This document shows positions 29,140 to 55,295 of a DNA stretch of 64,000 bases, piece by piece. Source of the DNA: a virus. The notes under the pieces were generated by a model that saw nothing but the letters and a program-made list of their open reading frames with translations, ran no database searches and was not told where the DNA came from. How positions within the stretch are numbered: the stretch's first letter is position 1; every line of letters starts with the position of its first letter. The stretch lies in the IMG/VR virus record IMGVR_UViG_3300031132_000323, positions 3,113 to 67,112 of that record. One strand, written 5' to 3'. The position numbers and the translations under genes were made by a program.

Positions 29140-29240
29140 CGGTAGCCCTCCTAATACTCAGAATTCTGAATTGCGGAAGTAAGAATTGTGCGGACTAGTC
29201 GGTCTAGGTCCGAAAAGGCCCCAAGACCTACCCCGCCCGG
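29140..29240. other. Probable cos packaging region
   Basis: Between the packaging HNH and terS as in HK97-like phages; exact cut site not determined. Confidence 0.45.
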
Positions 29241-29608
29241 GTACGTTCGGCAGCTGTCTTTGCCTTGTGGCAAGTGCCGCAGGTTGCCTGCAGGTTTGAG
29301 TCGTCCTCGATCTGCTCATCGGTCCAGCCCAGGGCGCGCGCAGCGGCCTTGTTGACCTTGTGGTCAACCTCCCCCGCGATGAATCGGCAGGCTGGACCCC
29401 TGATCTGGCAGAGGCCAGCATCGCGACTCAGGATGCGCTCACGGCGCTTTTGCCAAGCGTAGTCGTAGCCGCGCTCACTGCTGGTCTTGCCGCCGTTGCT
29501 GCGCTCCCAGCCTGACGACTGTTTGGCGTGCTTCGCGCAGTAGCCCGGGGCATCCACGAGCGCGCCGCACGCCGCCTTTCGACAGATCGACTTCGGGCGT
29601 GCAGGCAT
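29228..29608 (-). CDS. HNH endonuclease (terminase-associated, HK97 gp74-like)
   Basis: RGY...W.K.R...L.RD.GLC...VDH...NLQ..C..CHK.KT. Confidence 0.92.
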   Translation of the reverse strand: MPARPKSICRKAACGALVDAPGYCAKHAKQSSGWERSNGGKTSSERGYDYAWQKRRERILSRDAGLCQIRGPACRFIAGEVDHKVNKAAARALGWTDEQIEDDSNLQATCGTCHKAKTAAERTRAG

Positions 29609-29617
29609 GAAACCTCT

Positions 29618-30616
29618 TCATTTATTAAGCAACTCGGCTAGGCGCGCAAGAACATCATCGGTAGATCCGTCCGACTTCAAGCCATTGCACCGCCGGCATG
29701 CGCATTGCGTATTGCGATACGAGTGCTCACCACCGCCAGCCAGTGCTACGATGTGGTCAAGCTCAGGCGCGTCGTCGTCATACGTGCCGCGCTTACTTCT
29801 CGGCGTAGCAACGTGACATATCTGACACGTCCAGCCATCACGCTCGAACACGGCGAGCGGGTCAACTGTCTCGACGGTTACCGCTTTCTGACGGGCGCGG
29901 CGCAGTACCTTAGCGGCCAGTCGCTGGGCCCTAGCTCGAGCCAGCGCGCACGGCGCACAAAGCGTCGCGGTGCCATGGCCGTAGATCGGGCAGAACTCGC
30001 TATCACACCCTTCGCATCGGACAGCACGCCCCGCAGTCGCATGCGCCCGCCGTGCACCTAGTCGAGTAGCGCATGCTCGACTGCACGTCGACTTTTCGTA
30101 GCGTGACACGAATGGGGTGCTGCACGCTTGGCAGTGTAGGCCGAAGCACCTGGTGTAAGGCCCCTTGCTTAGGCGCGCCTCCAGTGCGTCTGCCGCATAC
30201 GCAGCATCCCGACAAGGTAGGGAGCAGTACTTGTTCACGTAGCCCGCGGCTGCGTTCGCGCCACCAAGACGACGAGCAGCATGGGCGCCGCACCTCGCGC
30301 ACTTGAATGCCCGCTTTTTCGCAGTCGAAGCAGCTAATGAAGCAAGGTAGTCAGCGCGAGGCAGGCCGGTCGCACTATTGCGCCGATCCCTCTCGCGATA
30401 CTTACACTGGTCGGAGCAGAACTTTTGGTGGGCAAACCCAGGGACGAAGGTGGCGCGGCAGTGAGCGCATGCGATACTACCCTGTCGCCATGCTCCTTTT
30501 GCGCGGCCTACCTGCTTTCCCATGCACTCTTGGCAGTACTTGCCGTACTTGCCAGACTTGAACACTTTCGTGACCGGCTGGCCGCACGGGCACGCTGGCG
30601 CGACGCTTATCTGCAT
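29618..30616 (-). CDS. HNH endonuclease with multiple N-terminal Cys zinc-finger repeats
   Basis: About five CxxC...(F/Y/T)CSxxC-like units; VFERDGWTCQIC...ELDHIVAL..GG.H...N.QCAC..CN..K. Confidence 0.85.
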   Translation of the reverse strand: MQISVAPACPCGQPVTKVFKSGKYGKYCQECMGKQVGRAKGAWRQGSIACAHCRATFVPGFAHQKFCSDQCKYRERDRRNSATGLPRADYLASLAASTAKKRAFKCARCGAHAARRLGGANAAAGYVNKYCSLPCRDAAYAADALEARLSKGPYTRCFGLHCQACSTPFVSRYEKSTCSRACATRLGARRAHATAGRAVRCEGCDSEFCPIYGHGTATLCAPCALARARAQRLAAKVLRRARQKAVTVETVDPLAVFERDGWTCQICHVATPRSKRGTYDDDAPELDHIVALAGGGEHSYRNTQCACRRCNGLKSDGSTDDVLARLAELLNK

Positions 30617-30692
30617 AATCACAACATCCAGAACCGTTGGGCTAGATGATAGCTCGCTCAGCAAAAACAGGGGGCGGCAAGCGGTCCAAACA

Positions 30693-35700: not shown

Positions 35701-35964
35701 TCATTTTGGTGTAAATGCATTGTTGTTTTGCTCTTGCTTGCGACGATTTTTGATCCACTCGACGCGCTTTTCAGTGCCGGCGTAGTCCTGCTTGAACCGC
35801 GCGCACTTCTTCTTGCCCCATGGGATAAACGGATTGGCCAGCTTCGTGACCGGGTCGTTGTCGTAGCCCATACACCGGCCCAGGCCGACGCGGGCGTGCT
35901 CCGGGTATTCCCGCATTTTGAAGTGCTTGCACAGGGCGCAGATGTCGTTGATCTCTTCGGTCAT
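35701..35964 (-). CDS. Small Cys-containing hypothetical protein
   Basis: CALCKHF...GRC...CARF. Confidence 0.65.
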   Translation of the reverse strand: MTEEINDICALCKHFKMREYPEHARVGLGRCMGYDNDPVTKLANPFIPWGKKKCARFKQDYAGTEKRVEWIKNRRKQEQNNNAFTPK

Positions 35965-36659
35965 GCAGCGCGGCCCAAGTCTTTGAGCATCTTGGTCAAT
36001 CCCTCAGGCCGGCCGGCGCGGCGCGGCGGCGCCTCGGGCGTTTGAGTCGGGATCGGCGCGGCCGGCGGCGGCGTGACGATCTGCGCCAGGCGCGGCGGCG
36101 CGGGCGGCTTGCCGCCGTTATCGATCGCAGCGCGGATGCGCGCCTCCCAGCTGTCCAGGGACTCGCCGAAGTGCGCAGGCCCAACCCCCACCTCGATCGC
36201 CTTAGCCAGCCGCGTGGCGTCAGACTTCCACCAGGCGCCGGCGCCGGCTGGCTTCGGCTCGGCAGCCGTCGCGCGCACGATCCACAGCTGGTCCCACTTG
36301 TCGCGCAGCTTAGCCGGCGACAGGATGTTCGCGCGCCAGAACCGGTCTTTCTGCGCCCACTGGAACAGCTCACAGATTTCGCTGCGCTTGCGGCCGTCGC
36401 GCTCACGCATGAGGCGAACGTCTTCCGCCCAGGCCTTGAAGTTCGGCTGCCTCGCCTTCGGCATCGTTTCGAGCAGCAGGTCGAACAGGCAGCGCGCGCA
36501 CTTCTCGTCGTTCGGGTCGACCTCGCGCGCCGCCTTGGCCGCCTTCGTTTTCTTTTCCACCTTCGCTGCCAGATCCAACAGCTCGAGCAGCGTCTCGGAT
36601 GGGACAAGCACGGCCGGCGTGGTTTGCGCGGCCTGGCGAAGGGCTTCGTGGCTAAGCAT
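35961..36659 (-). CDS. Replication-protein-like (conserved phage replication C-terminal domain)
   Basis: WAEDVRLMRERDGR...ICELFQWAQKDRFWRANILSPAKLRDKWDQL. Confidence 0.75.
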   Translation of the reverse strand: MLSHEALRQAAQTTPAVLVPSETLLELLDLAAKVEKKTKAAKAAREVDPNDEKCARCLFDLLLETMPKARQPNFKAWAEDVRLMRERDGRKRSEICELFQWAQKDRFWRANILSPAKLRDKWDQLWIVRATAAEPKPAGAGAWWKSDATRLAKAIEVGVGPAHFGESLDSWEARIRAAIDNGGKPPAPPRLAQIVTPPPAAPIPTQTPEAPPRRAGRPEGLTKMLKDLGRAA

Positions 36660-37353
36660 GGGCGCCCTCCCCGATGTTCGCGTAGCGTTTCGCCAGGAAC
36701 ACTTGGCCGGCACCAGTCACCATCGTCGTGAAGGTCGGGTGCGTCACGCCCTTGCTGTCGGTATATGGGTGCTGCTCGTCTACCTCGAAATAACCGCGGT
36801 CGAGGTACTTCTGATAGGGCAAATTGTTATCCAGAAGGATGCCGTCAGCGCGCAACCGCTTGAAGAACCGGTTCTGCCCGAAGCCAAGGGCTTTGGCAAC
36901 CTTCCCGATGTGGCAAGTGCCATCAGCCGCACGGACCGCCTCTGCAAAGGCCACCTTCGGCGCGTCGGCGGCGATCTTTGCGTCCAGCTCGATCACCTTT
37001 TCCGAATACTGCAGCAGCAGGCCGCGCAGCGCGTGCGGGTCGGACAGATCGGGCATCGCCGGCACAGCGGCCTCCAGCTCCATCCAGCGGTCGACGATCC
37101 GGCCGGTGAACTCCGGCGACAGCCGGGCGACCAGGACCAGCGAGTCCCGCTTGTTCAACCGGTGCTCCGGGTACTCGACGCCGTTCTGCTCGTGGCGGTA
37201 GCGGGTCTCCACAGATTGTGTAACCCCCTGCTCGACTAGTTCGCGCGCGGTGCGCAGCACCTGGTCGTGGCGCCGTCCGGTCAGTTCAGCGACTTCGCGG
37301 CTCGACATCGTCTGCTCGGCGCCGGTGTTTTGCAGGTTCAGCATGCTTCCCAT
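36652..37353 (-). CDS. Rha/KilAC(ANT) antirepressor-like protein
   Basis: TMSSREVAELTGRRHDQVLR; PKVAFAEAV...NLPYQKYLDRGYF...VTGAGQVFL. Confidence 0.9.
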   Translation of the reverse strand: MGSMLNLQNTGAEQTMSSREVAELTGRRHDQVLRTARELVEQGVTQSVETRYRHEQNGVEYPEHRLNKRDSLVLVARLSPEFTGRIVDRWMELEAAVPAMPDLSDPHALRGLLLQYSEKVIELDAKIAADAPKVAFAEAVRAADGTCHIGKVAKALGFGQNRFFKRLRADGILLDNNLPYQKYLDRGYFEVDEQHPYTDSKGVTHPTFTTMVTGAGQVFLAKRYANIGEGAHA

Positions 37354-38017: not shown

Positions 38018-38424
38018 TAGGCGAAGGTCGCTTCTGTGTGCGCCGGCTCGCCGAACGGGCGCGCCACCGGCTTCGCCTCGTCGTACGGCAACCAGGTCAG
38101 CGACGGCACGCCATCCTTCAGGACCACGGCGCCGTGCTTGTCGATCTTCGGGCCGCGGTACATGAGGCGCGTCAGCTTGACGTCACCCGGAGATGCGGCG
38201 ATCCAGTCATGGCAAAACTGCGGGGCGTCGAGCTCGGGCGAGATTCGGACCTGCTTTTCCGACTCCTCGAACATTCGGTCAGCCTCGACCGCCACACAAG
38301 CGCCCCACTCCGGTGCGGTCATCTCGCGCTTCAGCTCCTTGCTGTAGGTCGGGACGGCTTTCTCTGCCAGCTTCCGGCATACCTGCCGGCTCACACCAAA
38401 AACACAAAATGCACCCATGGTCAT
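38017..38424 (-). CDS. Hypothetical protein
   Basis: 135-aa ORF with overlapping stop/start. Confidence 0.65.
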   Translation of the reverse strand: MTMGAFCVFGVSRQVCRKLAEKAVPTYSKELKREMTAPEWGACVAVEADRMFEESEKQVRISPELDAPQFCHDWIAASPGDVKLTRLMYRGPKIDKHGAVVLKDGVPSLTWLPYDEAKPVARPFGEPAHTEATFA

Positions 38425-38957
38425 AACTCCGTAGTGATTTGTTCAGTGGCCGCGCCGACCGGCAGCAGGCCCTTCGTTTTGAGGATTTCTTGACTCTCGG
38501 CCCGCGCCGCATCGAACCGCGCGTCGACCGCCTCGCGCGGCACGCGGCCCGCATACCCGCCATCCAGCCATGCATGACATTCCGAGCATCCGTAGCAGCC
38601 GTGATGGTCTGGCGCCTTCAGGCCCATGCCCTTCCCGTCTTCGAGGCGGTTGGAGTGGCACCAGGCCGTGGTTTCCGGGTTGCGGTTGCAGATACCCGGG
38701 AAGCGCAGCGTGCAGTCCTGGCCGCGCGCCGAGGCGCGGATCGGCGTCATCTTCGGGCGGCTCGATTTCATCGGCTTGCGAGACTTCGCCGGCTTGGCTT
38801 CGCGATCGCGCGCCTTGGCCTGAACCGCAGCGACACGTAGCAGGCCCGCGCCGGCGGCGGGGGTCTTGCTGCTGGCGCGCGAGAATCCGACCTGGCGCAT
38901 CGGCGTGCGGCGTGCGAGCGGCTTGGCGCCGGGCTTGAGGGGTGAGCGGCGCATCAT
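38421..38957 (-). CDS. DUF1364/YbcO-like nuclease-domain protein
   Basis: SARGQDCTLRFPGICNRNPETTAWCH...GKGMGLK..D..GCYGCSECHAWLDG. Confidence 0.88.
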   Translation of the reverse strand: MMRRSPLKPGAKPLARRTPMRQVGFSRASSKTPAAGAGLLRVAAVQAKARDREAKPAKSRKPMKSSRPKMTPIRASARGQDCTLRFPGICNRNPETTAWCHSNRLEDGKGMGLKAPDHHGCYGCSECHAWLDGGYAGRVPREAVDARFDAARAESQEILKTKGLLPVGAATEQITTEL

Positions 38958-38968
38958 GATACGATTCC

Positions 38969-39622
38969 ATGATGACAACCAAACTCCGTGAGATTACAGG
39001 CTCGCCTGGCTTCATCCTGTACGCGACAGCCATCTTGGCAATTCTTACCTTCGTGGTCGGCAGTCACTACAATTTGACGCGTGCTGACTGGCCCGGATGG
39101 CTGCAGGCAGTAGGCTCTGTGTGGGCGATTCTTGTGGCCGTCTGGGTTCCTTGGCAACAGAATGAGGCGCACGAACGGCGAGAAAAGCAGAAAGAATCTG
39201 ATGAAATTAACTCGCTCTTGCGACTGATTCGAACAGAAATTTCCCTCATATTTGAACGAGTAACAGATATTTTCGGCGCTAGACTGGAAAATCTCGCTCC
39301 GGGAGAGCCACATTTGGTTCACCAGCCGGTGCCAGACGATCCATTTAAAATTTATAACGCCCTGCTCCCAAAGCTTGGAATAATTCGCGATGACCGCACG
39401 CGAGATCAGATCGTTCGGACCTATAGATTTGCCACCGGATTTTTCCTCTCTATTCACCTCAATAACCGTTTGATAGATGAATGGCATCACAGTAAGATCA
39501 GCTCGGATGAAGTAGCTATCGAAACAAGGTATAAAGATCTGGTCACGCATTGCCGGCCGCTCCGAGAAGGCTATCGCCTGACCAAACAGGAAGTGGAGAA
39601 GCTGCTTCTGCTCCTGACATAA
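38969..39622 (+). CDS. Low-GC membrane-anchored moron protein, antisense to the early operon
   Basis: Two N-terminal TM segments, WPGWLQAVGSVWAILVAVWVP; AT-richer than flanks. Confidence 0.7.
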   Translation: MMTTKLREITGSPGFILYATAILAILTFVVGSHYNLTRADWPGWLQAVGSVWAILVAVWVPWQQNEAHERREKQKESDEINSLLRLIRTEISLIFERVTDIFGARLENLAPGEPHLVHQPVPDDPFKIYNALLPKLGIIRDDRTRDQIVRTYRFATGFFLSIHLNNRLIDEWHHSKISSDEVAIETRYKDLVTHCRPLREGYRLTKQEVEKLLLLLT

Positions 39623-43988: not shown

Positions 43989-44567
43989 TCACTTCGAAAC
44001 CGTTTCGGCCATGCCGGCGAGCGCCGCTTCCATCGAATGCTTCGCTGCGGTGTCGGCCTCGATGGATTCGTTCACTTCCTTGATGGCGTGCTGCAGCGCT
44101 TCGGGCGTTTGCTGAATGGCAGCCGTCACCACCGCCGCCTTGGCCTCCGCGCCTTCCTTGATCATGTGCTGGAGGTGGGCCATGCCATCGAACGGCGCCG
44201 GCGTCACCGGCTGCAGGCTTCGGGCCTCGACGCCCAGTGGGCGGTACATCTGGTTCAGGCAGTGCAGCTTCACGTCGAGCGGCAGCGCGGCCAGGATGCT
44301 CGGCACGATCCCAGCCGGCAGCGGGCAGCCCTCGTCCAGCCAGCGGAACAGCTTCTGCGCGGCCTTCTTGGCCTGGGTGTAGGTGTCACCCGAGAAGGTG
44401 AATTCCACGCCGGTTGCGGCCTCGCCGCCCAGCGCCTGGTGCGCCTCCATCACCATCGCGGCGAACGCCTCGCGGCTCATGCAGGTGATGGTGTTGGCGC
44501 GGCGCCAGGCCTCGATTTCGGCGCGGAGGATGCCGGCGACACTCTGGGGGCGAGGATTCATATTCAT
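43989..44567 (-). CDS. CII-like (YdaT-type) transcriptional regulator
   Basis: Position after cro; AQKLFRWLD...PSILAALP motif. Confidence 0.7.
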   Translation of the reverse strand: MNMNPRPQSVAGILRAEIEAWRRANTITCMSREAFAAMVMEAHQALGGEAATGVEFTFSGDTYTQAKKAAQKLFRWLDEGCPLPAGIVPSILAALPLDVKLHCLNQMYRPLGVEARSLQPVTPAPFDGMAHLQHMIKEGAEAKAAVVTAAIQQTPEALQHAIKEVNESIEADTAAKHSMEAALAGMAETVSK

Positions 44568-44765: not shown

Positions 44766-45011
44766 CTAGTCAGTTGCGCGCCGTTGAGGCGCCTCAGCCC
44801 CATCCGCAGCTGGCGGCGTCCAGATGTCCGGACGCAGGCCGCCGAGCGTAAGCTTCGGCTCAGCCTCTACCAGTCTCTTCGAGAGACCGGGAGATGGCCG
44901 ACGATGGCCGCCACCTATCAAATAGAAGTAGCCGACCGAAGACTTCACGGCGACCGCCAGGGCTTCGCGCTGTTCGGGCGTCGCCTGCTGCAGGTAAGTT
45001 TTCATGTCCAT
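44766..45011 (-). CDS. cro: Cro/YdaS-like repressor
   Basis: EALAVAVKSSVGYFYLIGGGHRRPSP...LRPDIW; divergent from cI. Confidence 0.88.
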   Translation of the reverse strand: MDMKTYLQQATPEQREALAVAVKSSVGYFYLIGGGHRRPSPGLSKRLVEAEPKLTLGGLRPDIWTPPAADGAEAPQRRATD

Positions 45012-45018
45012 GCGATTT

Positions 45019-45087
45019 ACTTTACCAAAAAGATAAAGCAAACACAAGTATGAGTTTATCTTTTTGGTTGTTTATCGTATTGGTAAA
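45019..45087. promoter_or_regulatory. oR operators and pR promoter
   Basis: 17-bp TTTATC-N5-GGTAAA-like sites at 45021-45037, 45055-45071, 45071-45087; minus-strand TTGTGT-17-TAAAGT. Confidence 0.85.
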
Positions 45088-45105
45088 AACAACGATGATG
45101 CCGCG

Positions 45106-45567
45106 ATGACTAGAGAAGAAATCCGCCGCGAGAATGCTCGTAAGCTGGCGTCGGGCGCCGGAAGCAAGACGGAATTTGCGCAACTGGTGCAGATGGAGCT
45201 ATCCCAGGTCAGCCAGCTGATCGGGCCGAACCCAAAGAAGAACATCGGCAATTCGATCGCGAGGCGCATTGAGCGTGCATATCATCTGCCCGAGCACTGG
45301 CTGGATGTTGAGCATCCCGAACTTGGCGCACCTACGGTCAATGAAGACCCCTCGCCCAAGGCGGAGCCGCCGGCGCCCGCCGGCCAGCCATTGCAAGACG
45401 TGTCACTGGGAAATGAAACCACATTAGAGCGTCTCGACGGCGAAGAAAAGCGCCTGCTGGAGCTATACCGTCGAGCGACCAAGGATGGGAAGCTGCTTAT
45501 TTATGGAGCCGCGCGCGTAGCGCCGCAGGAATCCATCGACGGTCTTTTATTCCCCCGCCCTCAGTAG
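45106..45567 (+). CDS. cI: Prophage repressor (XRE HTH, no S24 peptidase domain)
   Basis: EIRRENARKL...FAQ....SQVSQLIG...KNIGNSIARRIE....LPEHWLD; short helical C-terminus. Confidence 0.88.
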   Translation: MTREEIRRENARKLASGAGSKTEFAQLVQMELSQVSQLIGPNPKKNIGNSIARRIERAYHLPEHWLDVEHPELGAPTVNEDPSPKAEPPAPAGQPLQDVSLGNETTLERLDGEEKRLLELYRRATKDGKLLIYGAARVAPQESIDGLLFPRPQ

Positions 45568-45783: not shown

Positions 45784-45881
45784 TACCCCTCCGTCGGGAG
45801 ATTCCTGCTGTTGTGTAGTGCCGCCAATGGCGCCCAGGTACTGTAGGGCGCCAAGCTCGGCTGTTCGTTTGATTCCTTGAG

Positions 45882-45909
45882 TACTGTATATCCATACAGT
45901 ATGCGTCAA
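45882..45909 (-). promoter_or_regulatory. LexA (SOS) box next to a TTGACG -35 element
   Basis: TACTGTATATCCATACAGTA matches CTGT-N8-ACAG; layout resembles recA promoters. Confidence 0.9.
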
Positions 45910-46059
45910 AGTTTAGCGCACTTTACTGACAAAGTGGCATGTCCAAATAAATATTTCTGTACGGCTCTTGAACGGTGGGAATCGGTGAGCTTTTGGCAAC
46001 TTCACAGAGCTATACTCGCGCGAGCGATACGGCACGCTGGGCTGCCGCATAGGATCGAT

Positions 46060-46626
46060 ATGAGAGCGTCTTCCCTACTTGTTGGCTTGCTGCTGTGCGC
46101 AGCTGGCGTCGCAATGGCGGCCGAGCCAGTGACTGTTCTTGGACTCTCACTCGGCGGCAAATTGAAGATGCCAATCAGGCAGTGCGCGACGAGAGAGATT
46201 GGGACCGACGCAAAATCACTTTGCTGGCTCGGCGAGCCGTTCGACTACAAAGGCTCAAAGTCAGGCTCGCTGATTGTTCCTGGAACTGACACGCGCCCCA
46301 AATGGGCAGCATATGGCTCATTCAATGTGTCGATAGCAAAAGATGGCACCCTACGATCGGTTGGGGTAAAAACCAGTCGCGCTGAAGAGTTCGTTGAGAT
46401 CCTCAACTCGATTACTGGACGCTTCGGTCAATCTAAGCGGGAAACCCAGCCTGGCGCATCAATTGATGCTGCCACATGGGATCGGCCTGACATTCACATT
46501 GAGTTGGTCTGCTCGAGGTCCTTCGGGTGTAACACTAAGTTCAGCTCAGGTGCGGAACATGCCGAACACATGAGAGAACTCGCGGCGCGTAAAGCGAAGG
46601 ACGCCGCGCGGCCAGCATCGCCGTGA
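46060..46626 (+). CDS. Secreted/periplasmic protein in the immunity region
   Basis: AGGA RBS, signal peptide MRASSLLVGLLLCAAGVAMA, four Cys in the mature part. Confidence 0.75.
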   Translation: MRASSLLVGLLLCAAGVAMAAEPVTVLGLSLGGKLKMPIRQCATREIGTDAKSLCWLGEPFDYKGSKSGSLIVPGTDTRPKWAAYGSFNVSIAKDGTLRSVGVKTSRAEEFVEILNSITGRFGQSKRETQPGASIDAATWDRPDIHIELVCSRSFGCNTKFSSGAEHAEHMRELAARKAKDAARPASP

Positions 46627-46822: not shown

Positions 46823-47626
46823 ATGACAAGTGCTGCGCCAGATCTTGCGCTCAATTCGATCCTTACGGAGATCGCAACTCTCGTCGATGCAACTGATGTC
46901 GATCACCTAAAGCTCGCCAGGCTAGAAAGAGATCTTGCAAAAATATGGCAGGCTTCCGCTATAACTGCCGCCGATTACCACATGACTCGCGCTCTTTTGT
47001 CTATGGCAAAGCGGCGCACTCAACCGGCACTAGATGCGGCACGCGAGGCGCTTCGATGGACGTCCGGGAATGCAATCGTTGAGAATAATTGTCTTACTGT
47101 AATGACGACAGTGATGGCCATCGACGATGCTATCAGATTGATACGGCTCATAGTTGCCCGCCACCCAGACGATCTTGATGCACTCAAAGGCGCTATCATT
47201 AAGGCGTCGGATGTTTTGCAGTTCAGTCTTGCTGTTGAGTTATTAGAGAAGTTTAACAAGCTAACAACTAATCTTGATTCAGTAAGCGATGTCCGCAGGA
47301 AACATATTCTTACCTGTAGGGACGCGATGATTCGCCACAAATTAACAGATGAAGACCTGGCTGCTCGCCTCAAAGTCGCCGTCGATGCGCTGCGCAAGAA
47401 AAATTTTGAGGCTTGGCGATCGTCTCGTCTCGTACTCGACGATGGATGTCTTATTTACTATGTCCATGTGGACGCGGACCCGGATCGATGCGCTGAATTA
47501 AATTTCGACATCGCAGATGCTTTAGTGGAGGAGTTTGAGGACACTGGCGCCGACTTCGTTTCAATTGCGTGTCGTCCGCTCGCGGATTTGCAATCGCTGA
47601 ATGTCCTAAAGGGTGACCCATCGTGA
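46823..47626 (+). CDS. TPR-like helical protein with C-terminal alpha/beta domain; partner of the HEPN gene
   Basis: Low GC; repeated helical hairpin pattern; GTGA overlap with the next gene. Confidence 0.65.
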   Translation: MTSAAPDLALNSILTEIATLVDATDVDHLKLARLERDLAKIWQASAITAADYHMTRALLSMAKRRTQPALDAAREALRWTSGNAIVENNCLTVMTTVMAIDDAIRLIRLIVARHPDDLDALKGAIIKASDVLQFSLAVELLEKFNKLTTNLDSVSDVRRKHILTCRDAMIRHKLTDEDLAARLKVAVDALRKKNFEAWRSSRLVLDDGCLIYYVHVDADPDRCAELNFDIADALVEEFEDTGADFVSIACRPLADLQSLNVLKGDPS

Positions 47627-48009
47627 CAGTTAACTATGAATCATTTGCTGAGTTCGCGGCAGGGCTACTTGCATCCGAGAGGGAGATTGACTGGAGGATG
47701 AGCGCTGGCCGCGCCTACTACGCTAGTTTTCATCGCGCTTCCTCAAGTGTAAAGTTTTGCCCAGATAACTCCGCCTATGCGATGGGCAGCCACACTCGGG
47801 TAACCGATCGACTCATTATGCATGGCGCAAAGCAGGCTAAGTCGATCGCGTATGTTTTGCAGGCGATGAAAAAAGTTCGTCATAGTGCGGATTACGAACT
47901 GAAGGGCAATTGGAATGTCTGCAATGCTGTAAACCAGCTTGCCCAGCACAAGGTCGTCGTCCAGCGATTGGATGCATTCGATGCAAGCGAGGGCGAGAAA
48001 ATAGCTTAG
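47623..48009 (+). CDS. HEPN-domain protein (putative RNase toxin)
   Basis: RMSAGRAYYASFH and KVRHSADY motifs. Confidence 0.8.
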   Translation: MTVNYESFAEFAAGLLASEREIDWRMSAGRAYYASFHRASSSVKFCPDNSAYAMGSHTRVTDRLIMHGAKQAKSIAYVLQAMKKVRHSADYELKGNWNVCNAVNQLAQHKVVVQRLDAFDASEGEKIA

Positions 48010-48190
48010 CCTGTAGTTGCAGAAAGCTCGTGGACCTTCTTCAAGCAATTTTTTTTTACGCCCAGGGTGTTGACTTGCCCTTGCGGTAGCGCCGGGCCAG
48101 GCGCGGGACGAAGCCTGGCACTGGAGGCGCCGGGATCCGGGCCGGCGCGCTGACCACTGGCGGTTGAGCGGCGGCCGGCGACGCGGCGCA

Positions 48191-48814
48191 CTATGCGTCG
48201 CCTCGAAAGTCGACTGTTAGATTGCCCTTGCCGTGGTTACAGTCACCGCATAAGACCTGGAGATTGTTGATGTCTAGCGCAAGAGCCGGAAAACGCCTGC
48301 GGGACTTTACGTGATCGACGTTCAATACGACGCTGTTGCCTGGGGTGGCGCCGCAGCACTGGCAGGCACGACCGTACTTCTCAAAGGCCCGCAGTCGCAG
48401 CTGACGCCATTCGAATGATTTGAGAAATTCCGTCGAGTTGACGTATGCGTCCCAGTCTGATGTGGAAGGCCTTGGTGCGGATGGCGCGCGAGGCGCCGGC
48501 GGCGTAGGGGCTACCGCAAGCGTCAGACCCAATGTTTTCAAAGCCTTTGCCACTACCCGCTTAGCCTTCCTCACCTTCTTCGGCTCCTTGGGGGTAACGC
48601 CAAAGAGAGCGATGTTCGTTTCCTTCCTGGCCTTTACATCTGCCTTGCGCGCAAGCTTGGCTGCGTGCATTGCATCGCCGTCGACTTCCAGTTCACGATT
48701 CTTCCTGAACCACCCCGATGGCAGCGGATAGGCTATGCCTGCAATTTTTGCCTCGGCATATGTCAAGGCGGCATTACCGCGCCGGTATTTGGCGATGTAT
48801 TCTTCCAATGTCAT
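48191..48814 (-). CDS. HNH endonuclease
   Basis: FLKSFEWRQLR...YGRACQCCG...LNVDHVK...NLQVLCGDCNHGK. Confidence 0.9.
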   Translation of the reverse strand: MTLEEYIAKYRRGNAALTYAEAKIAGIAYPLPSGWFRKNRELEVDGDAMHAAKLARKADVKARKETNIALFGVTPKEPKKVRKAKRVVAKALKTLGLTLAVAPTPPAPRAPSAPRPSTSDWDAYVNSTEFLKSFEWRQLRLRAFEKYGRACQCCGATPGNSVVLNVDHVKSRRRFPALALDINNLQVLCGDCNHGKGNLTVDFRGDA

Positions 48815-48898
48815 GTCGTCTCTTTTCCCAATGGCGGACAGCTTCACGCCATCGGAATAATACGTCTCCGCAGGAGTCAATGCTACTGCGCGAGGGAG

Positions 48899-49081
48899 CT
48901 ACCGAGGGCGCCCCTTTCGCTTGCCGCGCGAAGCCTTCGTATCGAACCTAGGTAGCCAGCGCTCGAAGGTGGTCAGCAGTACACCAGCTGGTACATACCA
49001 GGTCTTCCGCTCCCCGTCCCACCTAGCGCCCAGGCGGCGCGCTTCGTCCTTTTCTGCGTACGGCACATTCAGTTTGGTCAT
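48899..49081 (-). CDS. DUF5710-domain protein
   Basis: LNVPYAEKDEARRLGARWD..RKTWYVP. Confidence 0.88.
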   Translation of the reverse strand: MTKLNVPYAEKDEARRLGARWDGERKTWYVPAGVLLTTFERWLPRFDTKASRGKRKGRPR

Positions 49082-49099
49082 CGCCTCCAGCCTCCTGCG

Positions 49100-49541
49100 C
49101 CCTCGCGCGTATTAGATAACTCATGCTAAGAATTTAGATAACGCATCTGTTACCTAATCAATCACGCTTCTACTGCCTCCGCTTCGCTGCGCGCTTCGCT
49201 TGCGGCCGCATTACTTCGTAATGCTGGCAAGCTTGCGCTTGCCGGTTTTTATTTCCTGCTTGTTAGCTTTTCTTTTTCTCTAGCCCCCAGCCCCCAAGCT
49301 TTAACTAATACGCGTGCGAACGCGAGCGCGTGCGTGGTCGCTTCCTTCAGGTGTTAGCTCGACAAGCGCGTGCGCGCCCGAGGCACCATCCGACAGACTT
49401 TCGGGTACAGGGCTCTCTCTTCGCCACCCTGTGTGAGTCTCACCCTTGCCCCCCCGTTTCTTTCACCAGGTCGCAGTCTCACCTATCCCCCTACCCCTGT
49501 GTGTTTTCTGCAGGTAGGGCGGTCAGCCAAATTCGGCCGAC
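49100..49541 (-). other. Structured G-tract-rich non-coding region (putative ncRNA or origin)
   Basis: No credible ORF; many hairpins, direct repeats and G-runs; upstream promoter TTATCA-17-TAGAAT. Confidence 0.5.
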
Positions 49542-49547
49542 GAAGCA

Positions 49548-49612
49548 ATTCTACACCAACTTAATCTTTTTGATAAATAGTTCTTGCGCATGATTTATCT
49601 TATTGGTAAAGT
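49548..49612. promoter_or_regulatory. oL operators, pL promoter and a divergent leftward promoter
   Basis: Operators 49561-49577 and 49594-49610 match the oR consensus; plus strand TTGCGC-17-TAAAGT; minus strand TTATCA-17-TAGAAT. Confidence 0.85.
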
Positions 49613-49648
49613 ACCTCATCGACGCAGCGAACTCACCAGGAGCCAGCG

Positions 49649-49804
49649 ATGAAGCAGACCAGCAAGCCCGACCGACAAATGGTGCGCAGCTGGATGCACC
49701 AGCGCCAGGAAGAGAACAGGCCACCGCCGAGCCTGGAAGAAATTCGGCGATAGCTGGGCTGGAAATTGGTTGAGGCAGAGCGAGAGGCAAATCGGCCTCG
49801 GTAA
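49649..49804 (+). pseudogene. First pL gene with an in-frame amber codon
   Basis: AGGAG RBS; MKQTSKPDRQMVRSWMHQRQEENRPPPSLEEIRR*LGWKLVEAEREANRPR; TAG at 49751-49753. Confidence 0.6.
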
Positions 49805-49846
49805 CGAAATCAGGCGGCGCATTGGGCGCGGCGAGAACTGGAGATA

Positions 49847-50170
49847 GTGATGAGCACTGAGACCCAAGCGGGCAAACCGAAGATTTTCTGCTTTTCCAAC
49901 GTGGTCGGTGGCGGCGATGGCCCGGCTCTCGCGATCGCTGAGGATGGCACCGTTCTGGGCAGCCACTGGTGCAGCAGCGAGTTCTACGTCCCCGGTGACC
50001 TCGGCGTGACGCCGGGCTCTCGGCCCGACCGCCATGAAACGTATGCGAAGCACTACCCGGACGGATACGAAATGGAGTTCGTCCGCGTGCGCGACATCGA
50101 TGCGCATGCCGGCCTACAGCGCGCCTTCGCGCTGAATGAGGAGAAAGGCGCTCCCGCTGAGACCACCTGA
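49847..50170 (+). CDS. Hypothetical phage protein
   Basis: AIAEDGTVLGSHWCS...YAKHYPDGYEMEFV. Confidence 0.75.
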   Translation: MMSTETQAGKPKIFCFSNVVGGGDGPALAIAEDGTVLGSHWCSSEFYVPGDLGVTPGSRPDRHETYAKHYPDGYEMEFVRVRDIDAHAGLQRAFALNEEKGAPAETT

Positions 50171-52073: not shown

Positions 52074-52973
52074 ATGTGGTTCAAGAACCTTCAGATTTAC
52101 CGCCTGCCGCGCGCCTGGTCGATGACTGCCGACGCGCTTGCCGCCTCCCTCGCCTCCCAAGCCTTCGCGCCAGCGTCGAGCAGTGAACTGCTGCGCCAAG
52201 GCTGGGCGCCGCCGCGCGGTGACGGCGCGCCGCTCGTGCACGCCGTAAATGGACAGTTCCTGCTGCAGCTGGCGACCGAGAAAAAAATCCTGCCGACGAA
52301 GGTAATTGCGCAGGTTGCCGCGGCGCGCGCCGATGAGCTGGAGGAACAGCAAGGCTTCCGCCCGGGCAAAAAGGCGATGAAAGAACTGAAGGAGCGCGTG
52401 GCCGACGAGCTGCTGCCGCGCGCATTCTCGATCCGCGGCAACACCTTGGCCTGGATCGATCCGGTCAACGGCTGGCTGGTAGTCGATGCAGCGAGCCCGG
52501 GCAAAGCGGACGACGTCATCAAGCTGCTGCTGAAGGCCGTCGACAAGATGCCGCTGGAATCGCTGCGCCTGCAGCACTCGCCGGTGGCCGTCATGACCGC
52601 GTGGCTGGAGTCGGACGAAGCGCCCTACAACTTCACCGTTGACCAGGACACCGAGCTGCGCGCCACCGGCGAGAGCCGCGCCGCCGTGCGGTACGTGAGG
52701 CACTCCCTGGACCCGGAAGACATCGGCCGTCACATCGCGGGCGGCAAGCAGTGCACGCGCCTGGCGATGACCTGGAACAGCCGGATCTCGTTCGTGCTGA
52801 CCGAACAGCTGGCGATCAAGTCCGTGCGCCCGCTCGACGTTATTAAGGAAGGCGAAGCGATCACCTACAGCGACGACGAGCGCTTCGACAACGACATCAT
52901 GCTGATGACCGGCGAGTTGGCCAAGATGCTGGCCGACCTGGTCGAAGCCCTGGGCGGCGAGGCGAAAGCATGA
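52074..52973 (+). CDS. rdgC: Recombination-associated protein RdgC
   Basis: [11 protein letters not shown]...EKKILP...LLPRAF...[11 protein letters not shown]...LVEALGGE. Confidence 0.97.
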
Positions 52974-54264: not shown

Positions 54265-54795
54265 ATGACCACTACCCCAGCAGTAGCCCCGCTATCAGCG
54301 GCCTTGGACCGCAACGCGATCCGCGCAATTTTCCTGCAGCACGGCTTTACGATCAAGGAAGGGCAGACCGACCTGAAACCGTATGTGTACGAGGCAGCCG
54401 ACGCCCTGATCGCTCAGGCACGCGCCGCCCAATCGGGCCTGAACGCCGACGAGATGGCCCGCCTGCGGCGCATGATGCGCGCACTGAGCATTGACGAGAA
54501 GCGATGGAGCGACGAGCAGGCGCGCGATGCCATGTGTACCGTATTCGGTATGGCTGCCGGCCAGCTTGAAGGCATCGCAGCTGATCGCGCACAGCAGGCA
54601 GGTGCAGCAGCGCTGAGCGATGAACAACGCGAGCGGGAATATTTCGCGCGTCACCCGATTGAGGACCAGGGCGCCGGCATGCAGGTGGCGGACCAAGAAC
54701 GGCTGAAGCTTACGACCGCTGACTTTGAAGACCCCGGCGCCGTCATTGCCGACCTGCGCGCCCAGCTCGCGCGCCAGGGTCAGGTGCAGAAATGA
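54265..54795 (+). CDS. Hypothetical protein
   Basis: IRAIFLQHGFTIKEGQTDLKPYVYEAA module; GAGG RBS. Confidence 0.65.
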   Translation: MTTTPAVAPLSAALDRNAIRAIFLQHGFTIKEGQTDLKPYVYEAADALIAQARAAQSGLNADEMARLRRMMRALSIDEKRWSDEQARDAMCTVFGMAAGQLEGIAADRAQQAGAAALSDEQREREYFARHPIEDQGAGMQVADQERLKLTTADFEDPGAVIADLRAQLARQGQVQK

Positions 54796-55295
54796 ACCGG
54801 CCGACCATCGAGCACGTGCGCGAGCTTTTCAGGTATGACCCCGAGACCGGGAGTATCTACCTGAAACACTCGCGACAAAGGGGCTTCGATCCGAGCAAGC
54901 CGGTGGGTCATGTGAATCGCGGCTATGTGCGAGTCAACGTTTGCGGTCGGCTCATTACGGCCCACACCCTGGCTTGGGCGCTTCACCACGGCGAGTGGGT
55001 TGACCGGCTGGATCATATCGACCGGGATCGGGCGAACAACCGCATCAACAATCTGCGCCCAGCTACGAATGGCCAGAACCAGGCGAACGGTGGTGTGCGG
55101 GGCGCAATTCCGGCTAAGGGTGTGTACCTGAATTCGAGGCGCACCAAGTACGCCGCTGAAATCAACTTTGACGGCGGCCGCAAGTTCCTTGGCCACTTCG
55201 ACACGATGGACGAAGCGGCTCACGCCTACAACAAAGCTGCGATCTTGCATCACGGTGAGTTCGCCCTATTGAATCCGATTGGAGCAGATAAATGA
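54792..55295 (+). CDS. HNH-AP2 homing endonuclease
   Basis: LFRYDPETG...AH.LAW.LHHG...DHIDRDRANNRINNLRPAT..QN...LGHFDT.DEAA.AY..AA...HGEFA. Confidence 0.92.
   Translation: MNRPTIEHVRELFRYDPETGSIYLKHSRQRGFDPSKPVGHVNRGYVRVNVCGRLITAHTLAWALHHGEWVDRLDHIDRDRANNRINNLRPATNGQNQANGGVRGAIPAKGVYLNSRRTKYAAEINFDGGRKFLGHFDTMDEAAHAYNKAAILHHGEFALLNPIGADK

What the first reader, a model, noticed from the sequence alone, without database searches (positions are those of the whole stretch)
48191..49580. Repressor-controlled ~460-nt G-tract RNA leading into DUF5710 and HNH: possible RNA-primed origin
Seen: a leftward promoter (TTATCA-17-TAGAAT) overlaps operator 49561-49577 and faces ~460 nt with no credible ORF. 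The RNA strand has G-runs (GGGGTAGGGGG, GGGGGG, GGGGGCTGGGGG), hairpins (49377-49405, 49407-49432, 49489-49519, 49208-49224, 49226-49243), duplicated words (AGTCTCACC x2, CCCTGTGTG x2, CGCGTGCG x3, CGCTTCGCT x2) and iteron-like TTAGATAAC boxes (49112, 49134, inverted variant 49149). A DUF5710 gene and an HNH gene follow. Known: ColE1 RNA II uses a folded G-rich RNA to form a priming R-loop. Inference: an induction-specific structured RNA acting as replication primer, or as partner of the HNH. This fits the missing O/P module.
Basis: partly seen in the sequence, partly recalled or inferred. Interest (0 to 1): 0.7.

Follow-up and report, generated by a model that had tools for sequence, protein, structure and literature searches.

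The report
Catalogued phage RNA under repressor control
The gene-free stretch encodes a divergent copy of an already catalogued, intricately knotted phage RNA of unknown function that is switched on when the prophage repressor is lost; nothing found here ties it to DNA priming.

Summary
The ORF-free leader is real and structured. Its 5' part (49388-49521, minus strand) matches Rfam RF02932, "Betaproteobacteria-1 RNA", at 61.1 bits against a cut-off of 49.4. About 90 relatives from viral contigs show three covarying pseudoknots. They also show a conserved 3' domain that the 120-position Rfam model lacks. In this window the RNA therefore runs from about 49541 to about 49255.

"Repressor-controlled" is supported. 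The 16-base operator word over the -35 also occurs in the cI/cro region (3 hits against 0.09 expected).

"RNA-primed origin" is not supported:
- The G-runs are stems and boxes of the family fold.
- An O-like replication gene exists at 35961-36713.
- No DnaA box lies in the region.

"HNH partner" is not supported either:
- DUF5710 follows the RNA only here and in one close relative.
- A related HNH follows it in 2 of 62 other viral loci and 0 of 33 genome loci.

The family's function is unknown. My best guess, at about 0.35, is a cis-acting leader switch of an early transcript.

This scan reached the same family three times before, on other DNA. I rate it a new member of a known kind, of moderate interest.

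The parts
49594..49609 (-). Second copy of the operator word (TTACCAATAAGATAAA), in the divergent promoter region
   Evidence: 3 mismatches to the 49561 copy; 3 hits in the window against 0.09 expected
49561..49576 (-). Operator word TTATCAAAAAGATTAA overlapping the -35 hexamer of the RNA promoter
   Evidence: a related copy at 45022-45037 lies in the cI/cro gap (sequence). Repressor binding is inferred, not shown.
49548..49576 (-). Sigma-70-like promoter TTATCA-17-TAGAAT. The start of transcription is inferred near 49541.
   Evidence: 9 of 12 matches; the -10 is kept as TAAAAT in relative L076
49523..49540 (-). Lineage-specific 5' hairpin ahead of the family fold
   Evidence: L076 keeps it after losing one base on each arm.
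49388..49521 (-). Rfam RF02932 (Betaproteobacteria-1 RNA) match: P1, P2, the P3/P4 pseudoknot and the invariant core GGUGGCGAAG..AG.GCC. P2 carries a 33-nt insertion.
   Evidence: 61.1 bits, cut-off 49.4, model positions 1-120 of 120; family covariation
49255..49387 (-). Uncatalogued 3' domain of the family. It holds the extended A' hairpin (49350-49387), UGAAGG (49344-49349), the GGCUAG box (49278-49288) and the duplicated word AGCUAACA (49352-49359 and 49261-49268).
   Evidence: (D7); 88% identical to L076
49224..49245 (-). GC hairpin with a GCAA loop on the RNA strand. On the plus strand it reads as a terminator-like hairpin with a T-run (49223-49246).
   Evidence: two compensatory double changes in L076
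49208..49224 (-). Second small hairpin, GCAUUAC-GAA-GUAAUGC
   Evidence: identical in L076
49112..49157 (.). Three 9-mer boxes: TTAGGTAAC-N6-GTTATCTAA (imperfect palindrome) plus a second GTTATCTAA 22 bp further on, directly upstream of the DUF5710 ribosome-binding site. Candidate regulator sites.
   Evidence: 3 hits, all here, 0.07 expected; D3; kept in L076. Function inferred.
48899..49081 (-). Stand-alone DUF5710 gene (60 aa)
   Evidence: PF18974, E 8e-22; a homologue follows the RNA in L076 only
48191..48880 (-). HNH endonuclease gene. The ORF from the TTG start gives 229 aa; by inspection the more likely start is the ATG near 48817. Absent from L076.
   Evidence: PF01844 E 1e-8; phrog_144 E 1.5e-15

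Best explanation
What it is (about 0.95). The stretch is the untranslated 5' part of a leftward early transcription unit of a temperate phage. A sigma-70-type promoter is overlapped by an operator word that is also found in the cI/cro region. It drives a roughly 285-nt RNA (about 49541 to 49255). This RNA is a divergent member of the phage-borne Betaproteobacteria-1 family (Rfam RF02932).

The RNA has two parts. The 5' domain is compact and locked by three pseudoknots. The 3' domain is conserved but absent from the Rfam model. After the RNA the transcript most likely reads on through two GC hairpins and three 9-mer boxes into DUF5710 and an HNH gene, because no terminator lies on that strand.

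How it works (inferred, about 0.35). The RNA acts in cis as a leader switch.
- The knotted 5' domain is a binding module for a ligand or factor that is not yet known.
- Its 3' tail (segment A, CGGGU...) and a downstream segment B compete for the same middle segment M.
- The fold of the 5' domain therefore decides whether the M:B hairpin forms, and with it what happens to the RNA downstream (read-through, stability or translation).

DUF5710 and HNH are sporadic cargo, not partners. The HNH is probably a homing-type endonuclease that has settled beside a conserved RNA gene.
For: Identity:
- Rfam match at 61.1 bits against a cut-off of 49.4, full model length.
- 19 of 20 related viral loci hit the same family at 75-104 bits.
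- On 92 sequences, 86.7% of cells pair against 70.6% in shuffles (0 of 500 shuffles as high) and 38-45% when partners are slid. Helices PK1, P2, PK2, P3, P4 and M:B pair in 86-99% of cells.

Early and repressor-controlled:
- Promoter and operator word (3 hits against 0.09 expected).

Non-coding:
- No Pfam match for any ORF in the stretch, and single-base indels against L076.

Under constraint:
- Identity to L076 is 96% in the Rfam core, 91.5% over the full RNA and 90-91% in the hairpins and boxes. The DUF5710 coding sequence is 74% identical.
- PK1 changes CAG/CUG to CGG/CCG, a compensatory change.

Cis and switch-like:
- All recurrent downstream gene clusters lie on the RNA's strand.
- A terminator-like site 95-330 nt downstream occurs in only 3 of 58 loci.
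- Segments A and B covary by identity at 9 column pairs.
- M:B duplexes average -10.7 kcal/mol against -7.5 for partners permuted between phages. A:M duplexes average -5.5 against -4.4. In both cases 0 of 30 permutations did as well.
Against: - No transcript data exist. No RNA run is listed for this DNA.
- No ligand or factor is known.
- Downstream genes are diverse. The next start codon lies within 30 nt of segment B in only 6 of 54 loci, and the median distance is about 90 nt.
- The other alternative pairing I proposed (A' 5' strand with the B' word) is no better than permuted partners: -5.42 against -5.27 kcal/mol, with 4 of 30 permutations as good. The duplicated word therefore stays unexplained.
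- In this window P4 has a G-G mismatch where the family keeps a U-G pair.
- L076, the closest relative, was not listed at the gathering score.
- A sigma-70-like promoter at 9 of 12 or better directly upstream is seen in only 1 of 56 loci. An extended -10-like motif is seen in 10 of 56. The own promoter seen here is therefore not general.
- The conservation argument rests on a single relative.
Confidence: 0.4

Rival explanations
1. Trans-acting early RNA. The knotted RNA is itself the product: a decoy, a ribonucleoprotein component or a regulator that binds a host or phage factor early in lytic growth. The genes downstream are irrelevant passengers.
For: - It has its own operator-controlled promoter here and in L076.
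- The family occurs next to many different genes.
- Rfam types it 'Gene; sRNA'.
- The phage-specific word is carried twice, and no pairing I tested explains the second copy. That would suit a trans partner.
Against: - A terminator downstream occurs in only 3 of 58 loci.
- No complement of the word lies within 2.5 kb in 61 loci.
- In this window the only other copy (47259-47266) is in the same sense and within chance: 3 hits against 0.83 expected.
- No partner is known.
Confidence: 0.3
2. Processive antitermination element of the put/EAR kind. The nascent RNA binds the RNA polymerase that made it and carries it through downstream terminators.
For: - It is promoter-proximal here.
- In relatives it sits where lambdoid phages hold terminators and nut sites: after a cro-like gene (22 of 62 loci) or after the primase (8 of 62 loci, and phage AP1).
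- A T-run directly 5' of the RNA occurs in 31 of 56 loci, against about 9 in control windows.
Against: - The unit here is short (RNA, DUF5710, HNH, then convergent genes).
- No terminator-like site lies downstream of the RNA on its strand. The only minus-strand site in the leader lies inside the RNA.
- Terminator-like sites within 330 nt downstream occur in 3 of 58 loci.
- There is one copy per prophage, not one per early operon.
Confidence: 0.1
3. One reading: the RNA primes or activates a phage origin through an R-loop, as ColE1 RNA II or the T4 oriF/oriG transcripts do.
For: - The RNA strand is purine- and G-rich.
- The family abuts replication genes in 34 of 62 viral loci: an initiator-like gene downstream in 26 and a primase upstream in 8. 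A primase lies upstream in 9 of 33 genome loci.
- The 150 nt after the RNA are AT-rich (0.65 against 0.55-0.57).
- There are three 9-mer boxes.
- DUF5710 occurs in Toprim primase, relaxase and Rep_3 proteins.
Against: - An O-like initiator is present elsewhere in the prophage.
- The G-runs are paired helices or boxes of a fold that AT-rich relatives keep without G-runs.
- No DnaA box lies in the region.
- Repeat enrichment downstream is weak: 22 of 51 loci against 14 of 51, and covered bases 8.5 against 5.3 in shuffles.
- No plus-strand promoter was found for an antisense regulator.
- The position relative to replication genes varies: before, after or apart.
Confidence: 0.07
4. Self-cleaving or self-processing RNA. 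The two similar units A and B mark processing sites that release the conserved roughly 50-nt middle piece.
For: - The fold is compact and multi-pseudoknotted, with 25 invariant positions.
- Two units, copied in a phage-specific way, flank a conserved hairpin.
Against: No match to any ribozyme family in Rfam at E<=10 in this region. There are no data on RNA ends.
Confidence: 0.05
5. Guide or partner RNA of the HNH nuclease (or of DUF5710), in the manner of omega-RNA with IscB.
For: - An HNH of the same subfamily (45-48% identity over 76-79 residues) lies directly downstream of the RNA in L066 and L067.
- These are the only two such HNH genes in the 2.5-kb flanks of 62 loci.
Against: - 59 of 62 other viral loci and 33 of 33 genome loci have neither gene next to the RNA.
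- L076, the closest relative, lacks the HNH.
- The window carries five HNH genes. Together with the sporadic distribution this fits homing endonucleases.
- Pfam finds only an HNH domain.
Confidence: 0.03

Closest known systems
Betaproteobacteria-1 RNA motif (Rfam RF02932). I recall that it comes from the survey of Weinberg et al. 2017, PMC5737381. The main text does not name it and the supplement could not be read.
   Same: Full-length match above the curated cut-off. It shares P1, P2, the last hairpin and the invariant core GGUGGCGAAG..AG.GCC...CUG.CGG. It is phage-borne. Relatives occur in genomes titled as Burkholderiales: 31 of 33 titled loci that pass my motif filter.
   Different: It scores 61 bits where typical members score 75-104. 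It carries a 33-nt insertion in P2, an extra 5' hairpin, and large insertions in the A' hairpin and the M loop. It has its own operator-controlled promoter. The Rfam model (120 positions) lacks the pseudoknots and the conserved 3' domain of about 75-95 nt seen here.
ColE1 RNA II and the T4 oriF/oriG R-loop primers (from established knowledge, recalled)
   Same: A long, folded, purine-rich untranslated transcript from a regulated promoter.
   Different: No origin features were found. No antisense promoter was found. An O-like initiator lies elsewhere. The fold is a conserved pseudoknotted domain rather than a hybrid-forming G-tract.
HK022 put RNA and Bacillus EAR, cis-acting antitermination RNAs (recalled)
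   Same: A structured nascent RNA near the start of, or inside, long phage or operon transcripts, with no dedicated protein gene.
   Different: There is no sequence or Rfam relation. It is much larger and triply knotted. Few terminators lie downstream. The activity was not tested.
Riboswitches with an H-type pseudoknot aptamer and an expression platform (general class, recalled)
   Same: A conserved knotted core with invariant unpaired bases, followed by mutually exclusive pairings (A:M against M:B).
   Different: No consistent downstream gene class, no intrinsic terminator in the platform, and no ligand known.
Omega-RNA of IscB / HEARO (recalled)
   Same: A large structured RNA upstream of an HNH-containing gene in this window.
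   Different: The adjacency is not conserved. The protein here has the HNH domain only. No guide-like segment with a target was found.

Membership tests
Rfam RF02932 Betaproteobacteria-1 RNA | Covariance-model score at or above the curated gathering score (49.4 bits), over the full model | tested here: met
   61.1 bits, model positions 1-120 of 120, E 8e-9 on the whole window; 0 of 14 control genomes match
Rfam RF02932 Betaproteobacteria-1 RNA | Invariant core GGUGGCGAAG..AG.GCC and the ...CUG.CGG strand | tested here: met
   All are present in the window row. 25 columns are invariant across 92 sequences, the window included.
Rfam RF02932 Betaproteobacteria-1 RNA | Helices P1, P2 and P3 and the pseudoknots PK1, PK2 and P4 can form. 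The pseudoknots are my reading of the family; they are not in the Rfam model. | tested here: met
   The family shows 86.7% paired cells and 0 of 500 shuffles as high. In the window PK1 (CAG/CUG), PK2 (GGGU/ACCC) and P3 (ACAGGG/CCCUGU) form. P4 forms 5 of 6 pairs, with G-G at the family's U-G position.
Rfam RF02932 Betaproteobacteria-1 RNA | Host range: Betaproteobacteria and their phages | not testable with these tools
   The window is an unnamed provirus record. Relatives occur in Caballeronia, Paraburkholderia, Burkholderia, Variovorax and others.
ColE1-type RNA-primed origin | Origin features at or after the RNA 3' end (initiator or DnaA sites, an AT-rich unwinding element) | tested here: not met
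   0 of 10 one-mismatch DnaA-box hits lie in the region. There are only three 9-mer boxes. GC does not fall below 0.49-0.50.
ColE1-type RNA-primed origin | An antisense regulator RNA with its own promoter | tested here: inconclusive
   A plus-strand terminator-like hairpin lies at 49223-49246, but no plus-strand promoter-like site was found in 47900-50000.
ColE1-type RNA-primed origin | A persistent RNA-DNA hybrid with RNase H / DNA polymerase I dependence | not testable with these tools
   Needs DRIP and replication assays.
   An O-like/DnaD-like protein lies at 35961-36713 (phrog_391, E 1.3e-34).
RNA-guided HNH nuclease system (IscB/omega-RNA-like) | The RNA and the nuclease gene are conserved neighbours | tested here: not met
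   A related HNH lies next to the RNA in 2 of 62 other viral loci and 0 of 33 genome loci. DUF5710 does so in 1 of 62 and 0 of 33.
RNA-guided HNH nuclease system (IscB/omega-RNA-like) | A variable guide segment with matching targets | tested here: inconclusive
   The only phage-specific word is duplicated inside the RNA. No complement lies within 2.5 kb or in a suitable sense in this window. Distant targets were not searched.
Riboswitch (general) | A conserved aptamer-like core plus mutually exclusive downstream pairings | tested here: met
   core; A:M and M:B are both phage-specific; 0 of 30 permutations as good
Riboswitch (general) | A consistent class of regulated genes and a known ligand | tested here: not met
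   Downstream genes are diverse. The next start codon lies within 30 nt in 6 of 54 loci. The ligand cannot be tested here.

The most novel reading that the evidence does not exclude
The family is a phage-encoded sensor RNA, that is, a new riboswitch-like or factor-binding class. It sits where lambdoid phages carry their decision and antitermination elements: after a cro-like gene in 22 of 62 loci, ahead of an initiator-like gene in 26 of 62, and under direct repressor control here. Through the A/M/B toggle it would gate the move from immediate-early transcription to replication and later genes. In this prophage it would have become a free-standing, operator-controlled unit.
Probability: 0.15. 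Interest if true: 0.8.

Novelty: new member of a known kind. Interest (0 to 1): 0.4.

Why it matters
The immediate result is corrective. A tempting "RNA-primed origin" is instead a divergent copy of a catalogued orphan RNA, and its G-tracts and hairpins are parts of a conserved fold.

The wider value lies with the family:
- It is abundant.
- It is strongly structured, with three pseudoknots and 25 invariant positions.
- It is longer than its Rfam model.
- Its function is still unknown.

This window adds two useful facts. First, the RNA can stand as the first product of its own promoter, which is overlapped by a candidate repressor operator, so it would be an induction-specific early transcript. 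Second, it tolerates large insertions in P2, in the A' hairpin and in the M loop. These show where the fold is permissive and give a natural construct for probing, reporter and pull-down work.

Tried and rejected
- RNA evidence. No RNA holder is listed for 48150-49700. Laying four runs gave only short contigs of 150-313 nt from relatives, which say nothing about expression or RNA ends.
- blastn of the leader against 50,697 phage records gave no match. A typical member (L010) also gave none. L038 hit only Acidovorax phage AP1.
- Literature. 'Betaproteobacteria-1' gave 3 unrelated papers and 'RF02932' gave 0. The main text of the 2017 survey does not name the motif, and its supplement, which may describe it, could not be read.
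- A narrow genome pattern found nothing. The wider one worked.
- RNAalifold on the 3' domain alone gave 4 pairs and no covariation, because of a gappy alignment. I scored my own structure instead.
- Third copy or complement of the duplicated word: none consistent in 61 loci. In this window there is only a same-sense copy, at chance level.
- The B' word as a Shine-Dalgarno sequestered by the conserved CUCC: a start codon lies within 30 nt in only 6 of 54 loci. A' 5' strand:B' pairing is not better than permuted partners. Rejected as a general mechanism.
- Iterons after the RNA: weak enrichment only.
- An own sigma-70 promoter as a family trait: 1 of 56 loci at 9 of 12 or better.
- The upstream T-run as a terminator: only 9 of 35 have a stem of -4 kcal/mol or better.
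- A second copy of L076's own palindrome was not found in its 5-kb locus, whose cI/cro gap lies at the locus edge.
- DUF5710 partners by word search showed only PF18974. The full scan was informative.
Full report
**Setting.** The window is nearly the whole of a 67-kb provirus record. Pfam and PHROGs place the finding between two blocks.
- The immunity block holds a cI-like repressor at 45064-45567 (+), a cro-like gene at 44766-45047 (-), and a cII-like gene at 43989-44567 (-).
- A rightward operon starts at 49649 and runs through RdgC (52074-52973) to two integrase genes.

The cro operon continues leftwards through an Ant-like gene, an O-like/DnaD-like initiator (35961-36713; phrog_391, E 1.3e-34), RusA, two HNH genes and the large terminase. 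The premise that an O/P module is missing is therefore wrong.

**The observation.**
- The promoter-like site TTATCA-17-TAGAAT (49576-49548, minus strand) is the only one the scan finds in 47900-50000.
- The 16-mer over its -35 recurs 33 bp upstream and in the cI/cro gap: 3 hits against 0.09 expected. The cI/cro gap holds further degenerate copies.
- I read this region as a second operator region that serves two divergent early promoters. Repressor binding is inferred, not shown.
- The 460 nt down to the DUF5710 start hold no ORF with a Pfam match.
- Their alignment to the closest relative, L076, contains single-base indels.
- The leader folds better than its shuffles, z = -2.89.
- The RNA strand is purine-rich.

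**What it is.**
- Rfam's RF02932, Betaproteobacteria-1 RNA, matches 49388-49521 on the minus strand. The score is 61.1 bits against a cut-off of 49.4, over the full model.
- 99 of the 120 also carry the matching downstream strand. Two of those 99 look like chance hits.
- 19 of 20 loci tested hit RF02932 at 75-104 bits. The exception is L076, the near-twin of this window.
45 of these pass my motif filter.
- Of the 33 filtered loci whose titles were shown, 31 are Burkholderiales by title: Caballeronia, Paraburkholderia, Burkholderia, Variovorax, Xenophilus, Comamonas, Achromobacter and others.
- The only cultured phage found is Acidovorax phage AP1, where the RNA fills the gap after the primase gene.

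**Anatomy of the family.** Aligning 92 sequences, this window included, and scoring a structure that I wrote by hand gave these results:
- 86.7% of cells pair, against 70.6% in shuffles (0 of 500 as high) and 38-45% with slid partners.
- 727 cells show changes on both sides of a pair.

The 5' domain has these parts:
- P1.
- PK1, which pairs the P1 loop with the conserved ACUG.. strand.
- P2.
- PK2, which pairs the top of P2 with the loop after P3.
- The P3/P4 H-type pseudoknot around the invariant UGGCGAAG.

Beyond the Rfam model the family continues for about 75-95 nt:
- a tail A (CGGGU..);
- a hairpin A' with a conserved GGCUCC strand;
- UGAAGG;
- a hairpin M:B with a GGCUAGG loop;
- a unit B/B' (..CACC plus a word).

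A and B, and a phage-specific word of 5-12 nt in A' and B', covary by identity at 9 column pairs. Duplex energies gave a mixed answer:
- M:B (-10.7 against -7.5 kcal/mol) and A:M (-5.5 against -4.4) are matched within each phage; 0 of 30 permutations did as well.
- The A' 5' strand does not pair with B' better than with B' of other phages (4 of 30 permutations as good).

So competition of A and B for M is supported. The duplicated word is not explained. Three earlier reports of this scan on other genomes reached the same family, the longer RNA and the duplicated word. I had derived these points beforehand.

**This window's copy.** By anchoring on the conserved boxes:
- P1 is 49521-49487.
- P2 holds a 33-nt insertion.
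- P3 is 49432-49407.
- The A' hairpin is expanded (49387-49350).
- UGAAGG is 49349-49344.
- The M loop carries a GC-rich insertion.
- The GGCUAG box is 49288-49278.
- The duplicated word is AGCUAACA (49359-49352 and 49268-49261, D7).

AT-rich relatives keep the fold without such runs.

Against L076 the identities are as follows:

| Segment | Identity to L076 |
|---|---|
| Rfam core | 96% |
| Whole RNA | 91.5% |
| Hairpins | 90% |
| Boxes | 91% |
| DUF5710 coding sequence | 74% |

PK1 changes CAG/CUG to CGG/CCG, and the 5' hairpin loses one base pair cleanly. This comparison rests on a single relative.

**Downstream of the RNA.**
- The hairpin at 49245-49224 has a GCAA loop on the RNA strand and no U-run after it.
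- On the plus strand the same hairpin is terminator-like with a T-run.
- It keeps two compensatory double changes in L076.
- No terminator-like site was found between the RNA and the genes on its strand, so I infer read-through into DUF5710 and HNH.
- The three TTAGRTAAC boxes occur only here and are kept in L076. They look like regulator sites in front of DUF5710.

**The neighbours.**
- DUF5710 follows the RNA only here and in L076 (1 of 62 other viral loci, 0 of 33 genome loci).
- DUF5710 is a repeat module of polyvalent plasmid proteins. In 40 long representatives it sits with ArdC-N/zincin peptidase, usually also with Toprim (24 of 40), and with MobA- or TrwC-type relaxases (6 of 40).
- It hits 1059 plasmid records but only 2 phage records.
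- A paper on Acinetobacter plasmids lists Rep_3-DUF5710 initiators (PMC11233732; I read passages only).
- The HNH is absent from L076.
- A related HNH (45-48% identity over the HNH domain) lies directly after the RNA in L066 and L067 and nowhere else in the flanks of the 62 loci.
- The window has five HNH genes.
- Sporadic presence beside a conserved sequence is what homing endonucleases show. This is an inference.

**Context of the family (62 viral loci with flanks).**
- A Cro/YdaS-like gene lies upstream on the same strand in 22 loci.
- A gene matching replication-initiation PHROGs lies downstream in 26.
- A Toprim primase lies upstream in 8 of 62 viral loci and in 9 of 33 genome loci; a helicase cluster lies further upstream in the same numbers.
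- ParB_N lies downstream in 6.
- Erf, SSB and an exonuclease diverge further upstream.
- All recurrent downstream clusters share the RNA's strand.
- Terminator-like sites within 95-330 nt downstream occur in 3 of 58 loci.
- A sigma-70-like promoter directly upstream occurs in 1 of 56 loci, and an extended -10-like motif in 10 of 56.
- A T-run just 5' of P1 occurs in 31 of 56 loci, against about 9 in control windows. Most have no convincing stem.
- The 150 nt after the RNA are AT-rich (0.65 against 0.55-0.57), but repeats there are only weakly enriched.

**Mechanism.** No function is in print in the library I could search.
- I commit, at about 0.35, to a cis-acting leader switch. The knotted 5' domain binds something, and its 3' tail A competes with B for M.
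- A trans-acting RNA is nearly as likely (0.3).
- Antitermination (0.1), priming or an R-loop (0.07), self-processing (0.05) and an HNH guide (0.03) follow.
- The remainder is "none of these".
- No expression data could be obtained.

**Verdict.** "Repressor-controlled structured RNA" is right. "Primer" and "HNH partner" are unsupported. The object is a new, divergent member of a known orphan family.

Noticed in passing
window 49223-49246 (+): The hairpin after the RNA reads as an intrinsic terminator only on the plus strand (T-run TTTTATTTCC). L076 keeps it with two compensatory double changes. It could stop antisense transcripts that come from the plus-strand cargo genes and run across HNH and DUF5710.
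   Followed up: partly
window 46823-48880 compared with L076: Compared with L076, this prophage carries an extra block: two plus-strand genes (46823-47626 with no family; 47623-48009, phrog_5176) and the HNH gene. In L076, DUF5710 directly meets the homologue of 45877-46626.
   Followed up: partly
window 29228-29608, 29618-30664, 38421-38978, 48191-48880, 54792-55295: There are five HNH endonuclease genes in one prophage. Two sit next to the large terminase, and one is an HNH_3-AP2 type.
   Followed up: no
window 49304-49313 and 49106-49115 (-): A perfect 10-nt complement links the M-loop insertion of the RNA (CGCGUAUUAG) with the sequence about 25 nt ahead of the DUF5710 start (CUAAUACGCG). 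L076 keeps it with one G-U pair. By my own rough estimate, about 0.1 such pairs are expected by chance in 460 nt.
   Followed up: partly
window 45012-45105: The cI/cro gap holds three 16-mers related to the operator word. One is found by the pattern search at 45022-45037. Two more appear as a 16-bp tandem at 45054-45084.
   Followed up: partly
L002-L121, about 85-125 nt 5' of the core pattern: A T-run, often ..AAGGGGTTTTT.., directly precedes P1 in 31 of 56 loci. Most have no stable stem. It is unexplained: it could be a weak terminator of the upstream gene or part of the RNA's function.
   Followed up: partly
alignment A2, 3' domain against the P3/P4 region: The M-loop box (A)GGUnGGCUAGG resembles the core GGUGGCGAAGnUAG without CGAAG. 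Unit B also resembles unit A. The 3' domain may be a degenerate internal duplication.
   Followed up: no
L007, L015, L021, L040, L067, L081: In 6 of 54 loci a gene starts 12-30 nt after the CACC of unit B. In several of these (L007, L040, L067) the B' word overlaps or abuts the ribosome-binding site. Translational control may exist in this subset.
   Followed up: partly
proteins P0008-P0157 (DUF5710 relatives): DUF5710 occurs as up to 8 tandem copies in proteins of up to 3556 aa. Its partners are ArdC-N/zincin peptidase/Toprim, relaxases, a UvrD-type helicase or DnaJ. It looks like an adaptor module of proteins that conjugative elements use on entering DNA.
   Followed up: partly
L123, L147, L178, L188, L191, L207, L241: A Burkholderiaceae subfamily of the RNA shares this window's GGTGGCGAAGA.AGAGCC...GTCTGTCGGA core. 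Its P1 region and tail are different.
   Followed up: partly
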